A stretch of 64,000 nt of DNA from a virus: positions 6,833-70,832 of the IMG/VR virus record IMGVR_UViG_3300005663_000044. One strand, written 5' to 3'. The position numbers were made by a program, and so were the translations under genes. The notes beneath the pieces were generated by a model that was not told the DNA's origin, ran no database searches, and saw only the letters and a program-made list of their open reading frames with translations. Below are positions 6,171 to 29,500 of this stretch, one piece after another. Position 1 is the stretch's first letter, and each line of letters starts with the position of its first letter.

Positions 6171-6305
6171 TATTCCTCCTTTGGTCGTAGCACCAGTGAC
6201 ACTGCCCAGAGACTAATGACTGTGAACAGCATGATGCCTGCGGGTGCATCGAGCACTGCAAAGACGATGGCTACGAAAAACACTGCGTGTAACAGAATCG
6301 GCATG
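6171..6305 (-). CDS. 44-aa membrane peptide
   Basis: Read manually: MPILLHAVFFVAIVFAVLDAPAGIMLFTVISLWAVSLVLRPKEE, with GGAGGAG RBS. Confidence 0.5.
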
Positions 6306-6489
6306 GTCTACTCCTCCGTCACTAGCGGGCTGGGCTTAGGGTAAGGGGTCATGGAAACATCTCCTTATCCCCATTAAGTGCAACAAAGCCACATTGATGA
6401 CATTGAATCTTGTCGTGCCGAATACGAATGAAGTCGCTTTTTCTACAGGGATGCTTCACGGCTCTGTTCCTCTAAGCGTTCGTTTTCCA

Positions 6490-6684
6490 TCATTTGGCGT
6501 CCTCCTCAGAGTCTACTGCCCTAAAGAGGTCAATATCCTCCAACTGGCCCGGGCAGATAGGGCCTTGCTCTATCCTGGCGCTATCCGTCCTAGCTACTAA
6601 GAATAGGACGTGCTTGAATTCTGGTTCCCAACAGAGGGCACATATGAGATTTCTGTGAAGAGTGTGACAGACACGTTCGTGCAT
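6490..6684 (-). CDS. hypothetical protein (MHERVCH...)
   Basis: AAAGGAAAGGA RBS before ATG 6684. The longer ORF-track start runs through the tRNA-like element. Confidence 0.5.
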   Translation of the reverse strand: MHERVCHTLHRNLICALCWEPEFKHVLFLVARTDSARIEQGPICPGQLEDIDLFRAVDSEEDAK

Positions 6685-6705
6685 GTTCCTTTCCTTTCTA
6701 GTATG

Positions 6706-6778
6706 TGGTGGAGGCGGTCGGAGTCGAACCGACGTGAGTAGCCCGCTGGATACCACGGCTACCCTGAACGGCGCCCCC
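6706..6778 (-). ncRNA. 73-nt tmRNA tRNA-like-domain mimic (Ala identity, no anticodon, no tag ORF)
   Basis: Acceptor stem GGGGGCG/CGCCTCC with G3:U70, discriminator A and encoded CCA. T-arm GTCGG-TTCGACT-CCGAC. No D-stem; one long helix GGGTAGCC/GGCTACTC replaces the anticodon arm. Confidence 0.8.
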
Positions 6779-6783
6779 ATTCT

Positions 6784-7467
6784 CTACTTTTCTCTTAGAG
6801 CCGTGTGTGGCTCAACATGGCCGCGTTGGGCATCCCATAGGCACCATTGAACGGCGAACGGCGGCGCGTCGAACCCCTTAGCCAACGCTAGCAATTCATT
6901 CTCGCACCGTTCATAGTCTACTCGTTTGATATCCTTCGGTGCAAAGCCCAGCAGCAGCCGTGCCATATGCCGGTCGATGCACAGTACCTCACTCTCCAAC
7001 GGATTAGCGAGACATACAGCGAATGATGCTTTTGTCCTAGCCAATCCGCGGATGGTCATAAGCCTATCCCGCCAGCCAATGGAGCCATCCCCGTTAGGCA
7101 TAAATGGGTAGGCATCACGCTTCCAATCCGTTTGGAAGTCCAACAGAAAGCGGGCCTTTTGGCCGGCGAATTGTACCACACTGCCACCGGCCTTTACCCG
7201 AGCGAGCCAATCGGTCAACGTTCGCCAGCGTACGGGCAAGCGCCCGTTGTTGTGTAGCCGTTGGTAGGCTAACTCATTCGCCTCAAAAGCGGTATGCACA
7301 CTGAGGATAGCGAATACGATGCGCCAGAACACCACATCCTCTGTAATAGGGTTCGCCATATCCTCAACATACCCCCGATACTTAGCAAGTGTTCGGTCGA
7401 GGGCTTCCGGTATTGAATCGCGTCCTTGCAGTTTGACGGCGCCCTCAAATCCTAGTTGTAGGGCCAT
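6784..7467 (-). CDS. HhH-GPD DNA glycosylase, OGG2 (8-oxoguanine glycosylase)-like
   Basis: 'FWRIVFAILS', HhH 'LMTIRGLARTKASF' with the Lys, 'CIDRHMAR' with the Asp, 'YERCE' and a C-terminal 'WCLW' parallel the OGG2 family. Confidence 0.7.
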   Translation of the reverse strand: MALQLGFEGAVKLQGRDSIPEALDRTLAKYRGYVEDMANPITEDVVFWRIVFAILSVHTAFEANELAYQRLHNNGRLPVRWRTLTDWLARVKAGGSVVQFAGQKARFLLDFQTDWKRDAYPFMPNGDGSIGWRDRLMTIRGLARTKASFAVCLANPLESEVLCIDRHMARLLLGFAPKDIKRVDYERCENELLALAKGFDAPPFAVQWCLWDAQRGHVEPHTALREK

Positions 7468-7477
7468 ATGTCACTCC

Positions 7478-7831
7478 TTACTGTATTGGCTGTCCCTCTA
7501 GTTTTGTCACGCTAAGGTATACGGCCCGCTGGCCTAGCCGTCGTGCAACCTCTTGGCGCAATAGGTACGGGTGAAAATCGGCTTTGGTGCTATCTATGGC
7601 TATTGTGTACACCCTCACCGATTCAAACTCTACATGAGTACCGCTATCCCAAGCGCCGCGCCCTTCAGTGACGGTGAAGCCACCGAACGCTTTGACCAAA
7701 TTTACCTCTAGCGCCCGCAGTTGTGCCTGATATTCTTTTTCGGTGATGTACTGAAGTTGGCCCTTCCCTTTGAACGGGCTGTACTGGTCTGGATGTGTGG
7801 GTATGACAAGTCGTGCTTCTACCCATCCCAT
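7478..7831 (-). CDS. PII-like fold protein (DUF3574 / SAM-lyase-like)
   Basis: 'FGGFTVTEGRGAW...EFESVRVY...LGQRAVYL' pattern. Confidence 0.5.
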   Translation of the reverse strand: MGWVEARLVIPTHPDQYSPFKGKGQLQYITEKEYQAQLRALEVNLVKAFGGFTVTEGRGAWDSGTHVEFESVRVYTIAIDSTKADFHPYLLRQEVARRLGQRAVYLSVTKLEGQPIQ

Positions 7832-13221: not shown

Positions 13222-13391
13222 GCGTTGGGATGGTCTGTCGAGTTGGTGAGGTGCCCGGGTTACAGCCACGAACCCCGGGCAGAGAGTGGTGGGTACGTGG
13301 AGAGTAAGCAGACCCACCAACGCCACAAGCCCCCCCGCCGTGGCTTACGCGACGGTGGGTGAACAGGAGCCTACGGGCTCTTGTTCTTTTT
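13222..13391 (+). ncRNA. putative ~170-nt structured small RNA
   Basis: Has its own promoter and terminator, no convincing plus-strand ORF, and several stems (GCGTTGG..GGTCTG / CAGACC..CCAACGC; GCCCGGG / CCCGGGC). Confidence 0.65.
13361..13391 (+). terminator. intrinsic terminator
   Basis: GAACAGGAGCC-TACG-GGCTCTTGTTC followed by TTTTT; cUACGg tetraloop. Confidence 0.85.
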
Positions 13392-13941: not shown

Positions 13942-14166
13942 ATGGACTTTTGGGATATGCACCAAACACTAGATGCTACTTGTGACTGTCCTCCGGTACA
14001 GTGTGACGCTTGCGTTATTGACCCGGTAATCTGTGATGAGTGCGGCCGGGGCTTCATACATACTCACTTCGACGAAGACCTTGAGGCCTTAGAGGGGCGT
14101 TGTGATTACTGTTCCTGTCTGGGCGTACCAATAGATGAGGACGAGATAGAATTGGGAGTGACCTAA
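13942..14166 (+). CDS. acidic Cys-rich protein
   Basis: Several CxxC motifs; GGAG RBS. Confidence 0.5.
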   Translation: MDFWDMHQTLDATCDCPPVQCDACVIDPVICDECGRGFIHTHFDEDLEALEGRCDYCSCLGVPIDEDEIELGVT

Positions 14167-14864
14167 TGGCTTTTATCCACGGATTCCGATCATTCTCATT
14201 TGCCCGCTGTTTTAGAACCGGGTTACCAGTTCTGGCCGGCGCTGCGGGACAACACCTCCACCAAACGCTTCAAGTTGAAGCTGTGTGTCGTGGTATCTCT
14301 GCGGCTAGGTGGATGACTGAAACCGCTAAGGAGAGTCTACAGGCAGTGGCTAAGGGAGGCCCCTCTGTCCCACATGACGGGCCGGCGCCAGATTGGGACT
14401 GTACGTGTGGGGCCTACTTCTACAGGACTTGGGAAGATGTTTGGATGGGTGGGGCTAGTGCTTATGCTCATGTCACTTGTTTAGGGCGTACAATGTTACA
14501 TAGTAGTGGAGGTCGCGCGACTACGTATTCTGTTGACTACCTCGTAGCACCGAAACGGCCGGATGATAAGGTCTATCTTCCTGTGGAGAACGCGGATGAA
14601 GCTCGGGCCCAGGGCCTGAAGATTGTTCACTACCCTTACAATCCCTACGACTTTCTCTTAATTGCTAGTCGGTGGACGTTTGCTGAGGAATGTGTACAGT
14701 CTGAACTACTAGACAGACTTGCTTTGAGTCTTGGAGTACCTGTACTAGAAAAGACTGACCTAAAAGGTTGCCCAAGCTGCCTTATTGCTAACAAATGGAG
14801 AGAACCTAGGGAAGTAACACCGCGGATGTACAAAGATTGGTTTGGGGAGTCCTACCATGTATAG
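14166..14864 (+). CDS. conserved hypothetical protein (HxxPxPxxxCxCGxY motif)
   Basis: 'HDGPAPDWDCTCGAYFY...GRTMLHSSGGRA' motif; coupled to the upstream stop. Confidence 0.65.
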   Translation: MAFIHGFRSFSFARCFRTGLPVLAGAAGQHLHQTLQVEAVCRGISAARWMTETAKESLQAVAKGGPSVPHDGPAPDWDCTCGAYFYRTWEDVWMGGASAYAHVTCLGRTMLHSSGGRATTYSVDYLVAPKRPDDKVYLPVENADEARAQGLKIVHYPYNPYDFLLIASRWTFAEECVQSELLDRLALSLGVPVLEKTDLKGCPSCLIANKWREPREVTPRMYKDWFGESYHV

Positions 14865-28420: not shown

Positions 28421-29500
28421 ATGGAAGGTCAATCAAGTGCTTCACCTGCAATGGTGAACGATCTAAACAAGCTCGAAGAGTTTGAGATGACAACTGAGGG
28501 AGTACGTCCTTTGAGTCTGCAGAATCAAGCCGATCCTTCGCAGCCTGCTTCTTCCCCTGAAGGAGCACCTGCTCAGCCGGCCGGTTCGCAGCCAGAGACA
28601 CCGCCTCAGACGCCTGCTCAGCCTCAGACAGCTCAGGCAGGACAGCCCCAGGCGCCGGTACTTAACCCGTCGCCACAGCCTGTTGTAGAGGTAGTAGCTC
28701 CACAACCGGCCCCAGCCCCAGCAGCCACGGAACCCGAGCCGGTCGTAGCTGCACCGGAGGCACCGTCTGAGGAAGAGACGGCTGCTCTTGAGAGGTTAAA
28801 TACTTTCATCACGCAGACTAGTGAAACGGTTACTGAAACGGCTCGAAGAGAGGCACAGTCACAGTACGACAAACAGGCTGTGCAGATCAACCGTCAGCTC
28901 GCAGAATCAAAAACCCAGTCTGAGGAATTGACCAAACAGATTAGGGATTTGCAGTCTCGTGACCTGACAGACGAAGATCGTGCCAAGGTAAATGAAAATT
29001 GGGCACAGCAAGACGAACGAGCCGAGCTCGACAAGTACCGGGGGGAGTTGCAGGGGTTCCAAAAGACTATCTTCATTGATAGTCTGCTCCTAGACTACAA
29101 CCCGTATGGTGTAGAGCGAACGGCGCTAGAACAGATAGAGACGACCGAAGAAATGGAGCTCTACTGTGAACAACAGAAGTCAGGTTCATTAGAGAAACGC
29201 CTAGCTGAAGGACAGAATTCAGCCACAGTTCCTTCTGAGGCGGTAGTAACAGTACCGGAAGCAACCCCTGCCCAGGCCCAACAGCCTGGCGCACCGGCCG
29301 CTACTCCGTCTGTGCCGGTTACCGCGCCGGTACCGAACGCGCCGGGAGTCCCGGCGGGGGCTCAGGCCCCGAGTGATGTTGGTACTGGTGGTACCGCTCC
29401 TCAGGAGGGTACTAAGTTCTCTGAGGAACAGAACCCTGACGCTTTTAGGGAAAACCTAAACAACATGGACTGGTCTAGAGTCCGTGTGCGACAGGCGTAA
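28421..29500 (+). CDS. capsid scaffolding protein
   Basis: Acidic, P/A/Q-rich termini and central coiled coil; immediately upstream of the major capsid gene. Confidence 0.75.
   Translation: MEGQSSASPAMVNDLNKLEEFEMTTEGVRPLSLQNQADPSQPASSPEGAPAQPAGSQPETPPQTPAQPQTAQAGQPQAPVLNPSPQPVVEVVAPQPAPAPAATEPEPVVAAPEAPSEEETAALERLNTFITQTSETVTETARREAQSQYDKQAVQINRQLAESKTQSEELTKQIRDLQSRDLTDEDRAKVNENWAQQDERAELDKYRGELQGFQKTIFIDSLLLDYNPYGVERTALEQIETTEEMELYCEQQKSGSLEKRLAEGQNSATVPSEAVVTVPEATPAQAQQPGAPAATPSVPVTAPVPNAPGVPAGAQAPSDVGTGGTAPQEGTKFSEEQNPDAFRENLNNMDWSRVRVRQA

What the first reader, a model, noticed from the sequence alone, without database searches (positions are those of the whole stretch)
6706..6778. Minimal tmRNA mimic: tRNA-like domain only, with Ala identity but no anticodon or tag frame
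Seen (minus strand): GGGGGCG-CCGTTCA-GGGTAGCC-GTGGTATCCAGCG-GGCTACTC-AC-GTCGG-TTCGACT-CCGAC-CGCCTCC-ACCA. Established: G3:U70 with A73 is the AlaRS determinant, and a stemless D-loop, long helix and canonical T-arm is the layout of the tmRNA tRNA-like domain. Both ends resemble ssrA ends. The mRNA-like domain and pseudoknots are replaced by a capped hairpin, and the D-loop is only about 7 nt. The element sits 5 nt after the glycosylase stop in the early operon, so RNase P could release it. Inference: a decoy for SmpB, EF-Tu or AlaRS that blocks trans-translation, a tag-free ribosome-rescue RNA, or a decoy for tRNA-targeting defence toxins.
Basis: partly seen in the sequence, partly recalled or inferred. 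Interest (0 to 1): 0.85.

Follow-up and report, generated by a model that had tools for sequence, protein, structure and literature searches.

The report
Tag-less mini-tmRNA gene in phage
This uncultured sediment phage carries a 73-base gene for only the alanine-accepting, tRNA-shaped end of the bacterial ribosome-rescue RNA (tmRNA), with ends identical to those of Geobacter-type bacteria; such cut-down tmRNAs are a known but little-studied phage device that probably interferes with how the host rescues and tags stalled ribosomes.

Summary
Window 6706-6778 (minus strand) is a 73-nt RNA with a 7-bp acceptor stem carrying G3:U, discriminator A, encoded CCA, a canonical T arm, a 7-nt stemless D-loop analogue and an 8-bp capped helix. 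ARAGORN and the Rfam tRNA model call nothing. The Rfam tmRNA model matches it end to end, skipping 306 positions, but stays below the gathering score.

New here: its last 25 nt occur exactly in only 7 loci of the 185,579-species genome-contig collection. Six are the 3' ends of full tmRNA genes, mostly Geobacteraceae, and the seventh is cut by its contig end. Printed out, the six share the 5' 7 nt and the last 30 nt with the element; the middle is unrelated.

The kind is in print: 'TLD only' ssrA of mycobacteriophage DS6A (PMC4131195). This scan has also found such RNAs before on other phage DNA. This copy is a divergent variant, with a shortened D loop lacking the GG and GAC/GGAC motifs, and none of 29 related loci has it.

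The most likely role is a competitor in host trans-translation. That is inferred, not shown. No RNA data exist.

The parts
6706..6778 (-). whole 73-nt tag-less tmRNA-like (TLD-only) RNA gene
6772..6778 (-). acceptor stem 5' strand GGGGGCG (G3 at 6776), identical to the 5' end of six Geobacteraceae-type tmRNAs
6765..6771 (-). 7-nt stemless D-loop analogue CCGTTCA; lacks the GG and the GAC of the host-type D loop TAAAGGTTTCGAC
6736..6764 (-). 8-bp helix (6757-6764 with 6736-6743) capped by a 13-nt loop (6744-6756), standing where tmRNA helix 2 leads to the message part
6734..6735 (-). junction AC just 5' of the T stem (the AC of tmRNA GGAC); typical of TLD-like elements, rare in tRNA-Ala genes
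   Evidence: AC in 31 of 49 non-tRNA elements, 2 of 113 tRNA-Ala genes
6717..6733 (-). T arm: stem GTCGG/CCGAC, loop TTCGACT
6706..6716 (-). acceptor 3' strand CGCCTCC (U pairing with G3 at 6712), discriminator A and encoded CCA
6784..7467 (-). upstream gene, 227 aa, Ogg/HhH-like glycosylase family (weak Pfam match below cut-off); stop codon 5 nt before the RNA
6490..6684 (-). downstream orphan ORF, 64 aa from the inner ATG with an AAGGAAAGGA ribosome-binding site, 21 nt after the RNA; the 96-aa reading from ATG 6780 runs through the RNA

Best explanation
[quoted passage not shown] It sits inside a leftward block of small genes and has no promoter or terminator of its own.

The likely sequence of events is inferred. 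RNase P cuts at G1, and 3' trimming stops at the encoded CCA. Host AlaRS charges it through G3:U and discriminator A. The Ala-RNA is bound by EF-Tu and possibly SmpB. It then competes with host tmRNA for these factors and for stalled ribosomes. Tagging of unfinished proteins for proteolysis would be reduced, or replaced by tag-free peptidyl transfer, during infection.

Shown: the sequence and structure, the identity of its ends to tmRNA genes, and the absence of a tag frame, anticodon and cloverleaf. Inferred: processing, charging, factor binding, and the effect on trans-translation.
For: (1) Anatomy as described, and the MFE fold equals it.

(2) The tmRNA model RF00023 matches end to end at E 1.1e-16 in the genome. 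The tRNA model RF00005 and the mt-tmRNA model RF02544 give nothing at E <= 10.

(3) The 25-nt 3' end occurs exactly in 7 loci of the genome-contig collection (one genome for each of 185,579 species). ARAGORN calls a full tmRNA gene (359-395 nt, with a tag peptide) at 6 of the 7. The seventh is cut by the contig end and none is a tRNA-Ala. Five are Geobacteraceae, Geobacter or Trichlorobacter, one is a Deltaproteobacteria MAG and one is Tissierellales. Printed side by side, the six share GGGGGCG at the 5' end and the last 30 nt with the element.

(4) A model of 33 other phage TLD-only RNAs, whose structure has 11 of 17 pairs with compensatory changes, finds it at 50.1 bits and E 3e-8.

(5) Junction nucleotides follow the TLD pattern. 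AC precedes the T stem in 31 of 49 TLD-like elements but only 2 of 113 tRNA-Ala genes. Position 8 is not U here, whereas it is U in 91 of 113 tRNA-Ala genes.

(6) The complete genome (direct terminal repeats) has no tRNA, no full tmRNA, no SmpB and no integrase. The RNA must therefore work with host factors, and it is not an attP.

(7) Literature, passages read. [quoted passage not shown] SmpB with a TLD fragment supports template-free polyalanine synthesis, and a 63-nt TLD construct binds SmpB in crystals (PMC3929946). tmRNA is matured by RNase P and by 3' trimming with RNase T/PH (PMC3968760).

(8) The source gene caller started the downstream gene at the inner ATG, which leaves the element intergenic.
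Against: The D-loop analogue is only 7 nt. It lacks the GG and the GAC/GGAC motif present in the matching host-type tmRNAs and in 19 of 47 phage TLD-like elements by a strict pattern. D-loop/T-loop interactions are stated to be required for SmpB binding (PMC3968760, passage citing Barends 2002), so SmpB binding is doubtful.

Its score with the phage TLD model (50.1 bits) is far below that of 12 training members (68-81 bits) and DS6A (62.3 bits). It is only just above the best non-training matches, mostly tRNA-Ala genes (up to 48.5 bits).

No close homologue of its middle part was found, so its 8-bp helix has no covariation support.

The element is absent from all 29 loci that encode relatives of the neighbouring glycosylase. 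That includes the closest relatives with downstream DNA (72%, 62% and 58% protein identity), which run straight into the next gene.

The folding energy is not exceptional (z -1.87). There is no evidence of expression or processing.
Confidence: 0.5

Rival explanations
1. It is a tRNA-like processing signal. The element exists to be recognised by RNase P and 3' trimming enzymes. This would cut the polycistronic transcript between the glycosylase gene and the next gene (punctuation, or differential mRNA stability). The released RNA would have no function of its own.
For: It lies 5 nt after a stop codon and 21 nt before the next start, with no promoter-like or terminator-like site between it and its neighbours on the minus strand. 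The acceptor and T arm, the parts that RNase P reads, are intact, while the SmpB-related D loop is degenerate. Of 47 TLD-like elements in other phage contigs, 34 also stand alone with no tRNA gene within 1 kb.
Against: A processing signal needs neither G3:U, nor discriminator A plus encoded CCA, nor letter-for-letter identity to host tmRNA rather than to any tRNA. Relatives manage the same gene junction without it.
Confidence: 0.15
2. It is a remnant. The piece of host ssrA was captured by recombination, or is left from an ssrA-integrating ancestor (attP-like), and is now decaying without function.
For: There is a 30-nt block identical to the 3' end of host-type ssrA, the kind of identity block that ssrA-integrating elements carry. 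The D loop is truncated. The element is absent from all related loci. No close homologue turned up in six scans of viral contigs or in cultured phages.
Against: An attP fragment carries only the 3' part. Here the 5' acceptor strand sits in register, and the middle forms a perfect 8-bp helix that is not similar to the interior of those tmRNAs (alignment scores 10-17 against a shuffle mean of about 13.6). It is therefore not a simple deletion product. The complete genome has no tyrosine or serine recombinase. Dozens of comparable short forms exist in other phages, with compensatory changes.
Confidence: 0.15
3. It is a decoy or sponge for something other than the rescue system. It might be a bait for host anti-phage nucleases that cut tRNA or tmRNA, or a sink for AlaRS, EF-Tu or tRNA-modifying enzymes.
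For: The acceptor and T arm are an exact copy of the host tmRNA's. The gene lies among small genes of unknown function, presumed to be early. A staphylococcal phage anti-CRISPR protein is reported to associate with tRNA and tmRNA fragments, which shows that such RNAs figure in phage-defence conflicts (PMC11662646, passages read).
Against: No defence or counter-defence gene was recognised next to it. Known tRNA-cutting defences mostly cut anticodon loops (recalled), and this RNA has none.
Confidence: 0.1
4. It is not an RNA gene at all. The stretch would be the N-terminal coding part of a 96-aa protein starting at ATG 6778-6780, or a chance look-alike.
For: An ATG lies 2 nt before G1, and the frame stays open through the element into the downstream ORF.
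Against: The only database protein matching the 96-aa reading is this phage's own gene called at 64 aa from the inner ATG, which has a strong ribosome-binding site. Covariance-model E-values are 1e-16 and 3e-8. Thirty nucleotides are identical to tmRNA genes.
Confidence: 0.03

Closest known systems
'TLD only' ssrA of Mycobacterium phage DS6A (tmRNA Website tmID 11587; Hudson, Lau and Williams 2014, PMC4131195; JN698994 about 28478-28560)
   Same: Both are phage-encoded, about 70-85 nt, with an acceptor stem carrying G3:U, a T arm, a capped helix 2, and no tag frame or pseudoknots. DS6A scores 62.3 bits with my phage model built without it.
   Different: DS6A keeps the long D loop with GG...TCGAC and the inner AAAACC-hairpin motif of the main family, and it ends ACUA (alignment). 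The window's RNA has a 7-nt D loop without these motifs, a different cap, an encoded ACCA, and ends identical to a Geobacter-type tmRNA.
Full-length tmRNA (Rfam RF00023) of Geobacteraceae, Trichlorobacter and related MAGs
   Same: The 5' GGGGGCG and the last 30 nt (AC, T arm, acceptor 3' strand, ACCA) are identical.
   Different: Those genes are 359-395 nt with a tag reading frame, and they have a 13-nt D loop TAAAGGTTTCGAC closed by GGAC. The pseudoknot ring of full tmRNAs is known from PMC3968760; I did not map it in these genes. The phage RNA replaces all of this with an unrelated 29-nt hairpin.
CDS-less organellar tmRNAs (mitochondrial tmRNA, Rfam RF02544; about 65-bp plastid forms of Mallomonadaceae, PMC11915505)
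   Same: These are natural tmRNA derivatives that appear to lack a tag reading frame (passage read).
   Different: They are organellar, not viral. RF02544 gives no match to the phage genome at E <= 10.
Engineered TLD fragments used with SmpB in crystals and in vitro (T. thermophilus 5' 25 nt + UUCG + 3' 34 nt, PDB 2CZJ; Shimizu and Ueda 2006, as reviewed in PMC3929946)
   Same: The design is the same: two tmRNA ends joined by a hairpin cap. Such fragments bind SmpB and support peptidyl transfer without a template.
   Different: The constructs keep the full D loop, and the window's RNA does not. Nothing has been measured for the window's RNA.
tRNA-Ala and alanine minihelices
   Same: They share G3:U70, A73 and CCA. 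That minihelices with G3:U70 are charged by AlaRS is recalled knowledge (Francklyn and Schimmel 1989), not checked in a call.
   Different: There is no D stem, no 7-nt anticodon loop, no U8, and a 2-nt AC junction instead of a variable loop. ARAGORN and RF00005 both reject it.

Membership tests
tmRNA (Rfam RF00023), full form | acceptor stem with G3:U70, discriminator A, CCA, and T arm | tested here: met
   identical to six tmRNA genes
tmRNA (Rfam RF00023), full form | mRNA-like domain with resume codon and tag reading frame; pseudoknots | tested here: not met
   only 29 nt lie between the D-loop analogue and the AC junction; ARAGORN finds no tmRNA; no tag-like peptide next to a structured RNA anywhere in the genome
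tmRNA (Rfam RF00023), full form | score at or above Rfam's gathering score (47 bits) | tested here: not met
   32.8 bits and 41.4 bits
phage TLD-only ssrA (DS6A type) | tmRNA ends joined by a capped helix 2, total about 60-90 nt, no tag frame | tested here: met
   same layout in the 33 aligned members
phage TLD-only ssrA (DS6A type) | stemless D loop of about 10-13 nt with GG and (U)CGAC, closed against GGAC before the T stem | tested here: not met
   the window has CCGTTCA and only AC; host-type tmRNAs and DS6A have the motifs
phage TLD-only ssrA (DS6A type) | scores like members with a covariance model of the family built without it | tested here: inconclusive
   50.1 bits, against 68-81 for 12 training members, 52.3 for one atypical training member, 62.3 for DS6A, 49.6-59.9 for other short-D-loop forms, and up to 48.5 for non-members, mostly tRNA-Ala
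phage TLD-only ssrA (DS6A type) | AC immediately 5' of the T stem and no U8 | tested here: met
   AC in 31 of 49 TLD-like elements against 2 of 113 tRNA-Ala genes; the window has AC and C8
phage TLD-only ssrA (DS6A type) | binds SmpB and inhibits trans-translation | not testable with these tools
   known only for a DS6A-like molecule, as cited in PMC4131195; Mao et al. 2009 itself is not held
tRNA (RF00005 / ARAGORN cloverleaf) | cloverleaf with D arm and 7-nt anticodon loop | tested here: not met
   at a very loose ARAGORN threshold it appears only as 'tRNA-???' with a 2-nt anticodon among 46 junk calls
mt-tmRNA (RF02544) | match to the family model | tested here: not met
   no match at E <= 10
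attP of an ssrA-integrating phage | identity block with the 3' end of host ssrA | tested here: met
   30 nt identical
attP of an ssrA-integrating phage | an integrase in the genome; only the 3' part of the gene present | tested here: not met
   no Phage_integrase or Resolvase match in the complete genome; the 5' acceptor strand is present in register

The most novel reading that the evidence does not exclude
The shortened D loop may mean that this RNA no longer binds SmpB. It would then be a functional type distinct from the DS6A-like 'SmpB sponge': a host-matched alanyl top-half RNA processed out of an early mRNA. Such an RNA would act through AlaRS, EF-Tu or the ribosome alone, for example by delivering Ala to stalled ribosomes or soaking up a tmRNA-directed host factor. 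Together with the other short-D-loop forms seen here (L016, the L258/L264 group, L019, L014), it would make a second, undescribed branch of phage tmRNA mimics whose ends are tuned to the host's own tmRNA.
Probability: 0.2. Interest if true: 0.7.

Novelty: new variant of a known kind. Interest (0 to 1): 0.45.

Why it matters
Trans-translation is the main ribosome-rescue system of bacteria and a drug target, and phages depend on or fight with it in ways that are poorly understood. A tag-less tmRNA head encoded by phages would be a natural inhibitor, or re-router, of that system. One example (DS6A) is in print with a one-sentence interpretation.

This window adds a case whose ends are a letter-for-letter copy of a particular host lineage's tmRNA. 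That gives a host prediction (Geobacteraceae-type bacteria, which fits the marine-sediment origin recorded) and a clean test system. Its truncated D loop also offers a natural experiment on whether SmpB binding is needed for whatever these RNAs do.

The finding is not new in kind, and this scan has reported such RNAs on other phage DNA several times.

Tried and rejected
Expression: the look-up of sequencing runs listed 3 DNA runs of one marine-sediment study and no RNA holder, so expression and ends could not be examined. Laying the three runs' contigs gave one contig per run covering 6200-7500 with 0 differences. These may be the source of this DNA. There was no joint lacking the element. The only other matches were short ones (31-37 nt, 1-5 differences) to the T-arm and acceptor end from other contigs of the community, one of which reads on into a tRNA-Ala-like anticodon loop. 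I draw nothing from these.

The single-protein scan of viral contigs found no relative. With an alignment of 21 glycosylase homologues, I got 26 metagenome loci and 3 viral loci. Five of the 26 end at or within a few bases of the gene, and the rest have 100 nt or more downstream. None has a TLD-like element by pattern or by model R1. The six R1 hits of about 30 bits there are ordinary tRNA-Met and tRNA-Tyr genes on the other strand.

Close homologues of the element: five pattern scans were run (in viral contigs; in genomes). None gave an RNA sharing the window's middle part. The nearest in layout are L016 and the L258/L264 group. Cultured phages gave only 25-30-nt matches to T arms. The two unannotated ones I opened are a tRNA-Ala-like gene in a Vibrio phage and a weak tRNA-like stretch in Aeromonas phage Aeh1, not TLD-only RNAs.

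The candidate small RNA at 13222-13391 has no Rfam match better than E 3.4.

Second R1 hit at 14154-14263 (+): E 1.2, no T arm, overlaps a coding start, and folds no better than shuffles. I rejected it as chance.

Simple-deletion origin: the 38-nt middle aligns to the interior of four of the matching tmRNAs no better than shuffled versions do.

My strict motif count of 'canonical' D loops (19 of 47) is crude. Several obvious members fail it on spacing alone, so it is only a rough measure.

Literature: six searches found no description of a phage family of TLD-only tmRNAs beyond DS6A. One search failed on a too-long term. Mao et al. 2009 is not held, so I cite it only through PMC4131195 and PMC11915505. 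Supplementary files were not opened. The tmRNA Website and the 2025 database paper's supplements may list further phage TLD-only sequences that I could not see. Complex prediction, structure prediction and fold search were not used, because they take proteins, not RNA.

Full report
WHAT IS THERE. The window is bases 6833-70832 of a 70,832-bp IMG/VR virus record with direct terminal repeats, rated complete. It has about 52% G+C. The phage encodes a family-A DNA polymerase, a UvsX-like recombinase, an exonuclease and a major head protein.

- a 7-bp acceptor stem, with the third pair G:U;
- 7 unpaired nt;
- an 8-bp helix capped by 13 nt;
- the dinucleotide AC;
- a 5-bp T stem with loop TTCGACT;
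- the acceptor 3' strand;
- ACCA.

It begins 5 nt after the stop codon of a 227-aa glycosylase-like gene (6784-7467). That gene has a weak Pfam Ogg-HhH match below the cut-off, and 22 homologues in the protein database beside itself. The element ends 21 nt before the ribosome-binding site and ATG of a 64-aa orphan ORF. No promoter-like or terminator-like site lies between these genes on the minus strand.

IS IT MORE THAN CHANCE, AND IS IT A tRNA? ARAGORN calls no tRNA or tmRNA in the window or the whole genome. At a very loose threshold the element appears only as an undetermined tRNA with a 2-nt anticodon, among 46 junk calls.

Rfam at gathering thresholds reports nothing in the window. In E-value mode the tmRNA model RF00023 aligns from its first to its last position, skipping 306 positions: 32.8 bits and E 8.3e-12, and 41.4 bits and E 1.1e-16 over the genome. 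Both are below the 47-bit gathering score. The tRNA model RF00005 and the mitochondrial tmRNA model RF02544 give nothing at E <= 10.

The thermodynamic fold equals the proposed structure, but its energy is unremarkable (z -1.87).

THE FAMILY. Exact-pattern scans of IMG/VR with the tmRNA-type ends returned 20, 118 and 120 stretches.

Among 167 distinct candidates with a 7-bp acceptor stem, ARAGORN as tRNA-Ala, 5 as other or odd tRNAs, and 49 as nothing. The 49 collapse to 47 elements of 59-91 nt, and 34 of these have no tRNA gene within 1 kb. Most are plainly tmRNA heads: GG...TCGAC after the acceptor stem, a helix with a small cap, then GGAC before the T arm.

An alignment of 33 of them, without the window, gives a consensus structure of 17 pairs, 11 of which show compensatory changes. 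The covariance model built from it (R1) scores the published DS6A element at 62.3 bits, so DS6A is an ordinary member of this larger set.

WHERE THE WINDOW'S RNA STANDS. R1 finds it as the only significant hit in the window, at 50.1 bits and E 3.1e-08. As a control, I searched 100 loci from the pattern scans. Twelve training members scored 68-81 bits and one atypical training member scored 52.3. Everything else, mostly tRNA-Ala genes that share the fixed ends, scored up to 48.5 bits.

The window's RNA therefore sits in a middle zone, together with other short-D-loop forms: L016 at 59.9, L258 at 53.5, L019 at 53.3, L264 at 53.0 and L014 at 49.6. The cause is visible in the alignments. Its D-loop analogue is 7 nt, with no GG and no GAC, and only the AC of GGAC remains.

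Two junction features still put it on the tmRNA side. AC precedes the T stem in 31 of 49 non-tRNA elements but in only 2 of 113 tRNA-Ala genes. Position 8 is U in 91 of 113 tRNA-Ala genes but C here.

THE MAIN NEW RESULT. The last 25 nt up to the discriminator, used as an exact pattern against one genome for each of 185,579 species, matched 7 loci. ARAGORN calls a full tmRNA gene of 359-395 nt with a tag peptide at 6 of them. The seventh match lies 106 nt from the start of its locus, and the bases before it read like the 3' part of the same tmRNA. None is a tRNA-Ala.

Five are labelled Geobacteraceae, Geobacter or Trichlorobacter, one is a Deltaproteobacteria MAG, and one is Tissierellales. 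All six printed genes begin GGGGGCG and share the final 30 nt with the phage RNA.

Their D loop (TAAAGGTTTCGAC) and helix 2 differ from the phage RNA's. The phage RNA's 38-nt middle aligns to their interiors no better than shuffled sequence does.

So both ends are a letter-for-letter copy of a tmRNA of this lineage, and the middle is a different, perfectly paired hairpin. This argues for derivation from, or tuning to, the tmRNA of a Geobacteraceae-type host. That fits the marine-sediment origin of the runs that hold the phage. It also argues against origin from a tRNA-Ala gene.

RIVALS.
- attP or captured fragment. The 30-nt identity block is what an ssrA-integrating element would carry. But the genome has no tyrosine or serine recombinase, the 5' acceptor strand is present in register, and the middle is not a deletion product.
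- Coding sequence. An ATG 2 nt upstream opens a 96-aa frame through the element. The only database match is this phage's own gene, called at 64 aa from the inner ATG.
- Lack of conservation. This is real and counts against a long-standing function in this phage lineage. None of 29 loci encoding relatives of the glycosylase (72% to 37% identity) has such an element, and the closest relatives with downstream DNA go straight into the next gene.
- Processing signal. I cannot exclude that the element serves mainly as an RNase P site in the operon transcript.

HOW IT MOST LIKELY WORKS (inferred). tmRNA is matured by RNase P at the 5' end and by trimming to CCA at the 3' end. It is charged by AlaRS, and its TLD binds SmpB and EF-Tu (PMC3968760, PMC3929946; passages read). 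TLD fragments with SmpB enter ribosomes and support peptidyl transfer without a template (PMC3929946). A DS6A-like TLD molecule is reported to inhibit tmRNA strongly, perhaps by titrating SmpB (PMC4131195; PMC11915505).

The phage has no SmpB of its own. An RNA with the host tmRNA's own acceptor stem and T arm would therefore be processed and charged like it, and would compete with it. Whether SmpB still binds is the open point, because D-loop/T-loop contacts are said to be needed for SmpB binding (PMC3968760) and the D loop is cut down here.

I put 0.85 on this being a real tmRNA-derived RNA gene, and 0.5 on it acting on the trans-translation system.

NOVELTY. The kind is known: the DS6A 'TLD only' entry, and CDS-less organellar forms. 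Six literature searches found no description of the wider phage family. Supplements and the tmRNA Website were not visible to me.

This copy is a divergent variant, with a short D loop and host-identical ends. I rate it a new variant of a known kind, of moderate interest.

Noticed in passing
L258:5049-5128 (+), L264:5947-6026 (-) and at least 7 further IMG/VR loci (L259, L261, L267, L270-L273): An 80-nt TLD-like RNA with the D loop ATCTGGTCA and a short helix, ending ACAA instead of ACCA. It recurs in 9 viral contigs in two versions, which differ by a compensatory change in the T stem (GTGGG/CCCAC versus GTAGG/CCTAC). ARAGORN calls nothing; R1 gives 53 bits.
   Followed up: partly
alignment A3 (e.g. 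L060:4155-4236, L136:3678-3758, L012:2898-2977) and DS6A L282:279-361: Most canonical phage TLD-only RNAs share an inner motif inside the helix-2 cap: roughly TAA/CAA + RRCC, a 3-4-bp hairpin, then RA. DS6A has it too (CGAAAACCGCACGCGGTACC). The window's RNA lacks it. Its meaning is unknown.
   Followed up: no
L176:2614-2672 (-) and L208:5909-5967 (-), nested in 76-nt forms (L176:2614-2689, L195:8948-9023): Alanine-type tRNA-like genes in tRNA arrays with a normal-looking CTTGCAA anticodon loop but an aberrant D region (CATGTTCCAAGGGGGCGA...). ARAGORN does not call them.
   Followed up: no
L283:353-428 (MG592456.1, about 199351-199426, Vibrio phage 1.081.O): An unannotated tRNA-Ala-like gene (anticodon-loop-like CCTTGCACG, odd D region) sits beside annotated tRNA-Thr and tRNA-Arg genes in a cultured phage.
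   Followed up: partly
window 13222-13391 (+): A stretch of about 170 nt without a convincing ORF, between a TTGACA/TATAGT promoter-like site and a hairpin followed by a T run, at the point where gene direction switches. It has no Rfam match better than E 3.4 and no tmRNA tag frame.
   Followed up: partly
window 6784-7467 (-) and loci L022-L047: The 227-aa glycosylase-like protein has 22 database homologues (72-39% identity), with 37 invariant positions among the 21 sequences I aligned. Pfam Ogg-HhH matches the window's copy only weakly (E 0.001, below cut-off). The gene downstream of it differs among relatives.
   Followed up: partly
window 14154-14263 (+): A weak R1 hit (12.2 bits, E 1.2) with GGGAGTG...CACCTCCACCA ends but no T arm, overlapping a coding start. 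I judged it chance.
   Followed up: yes
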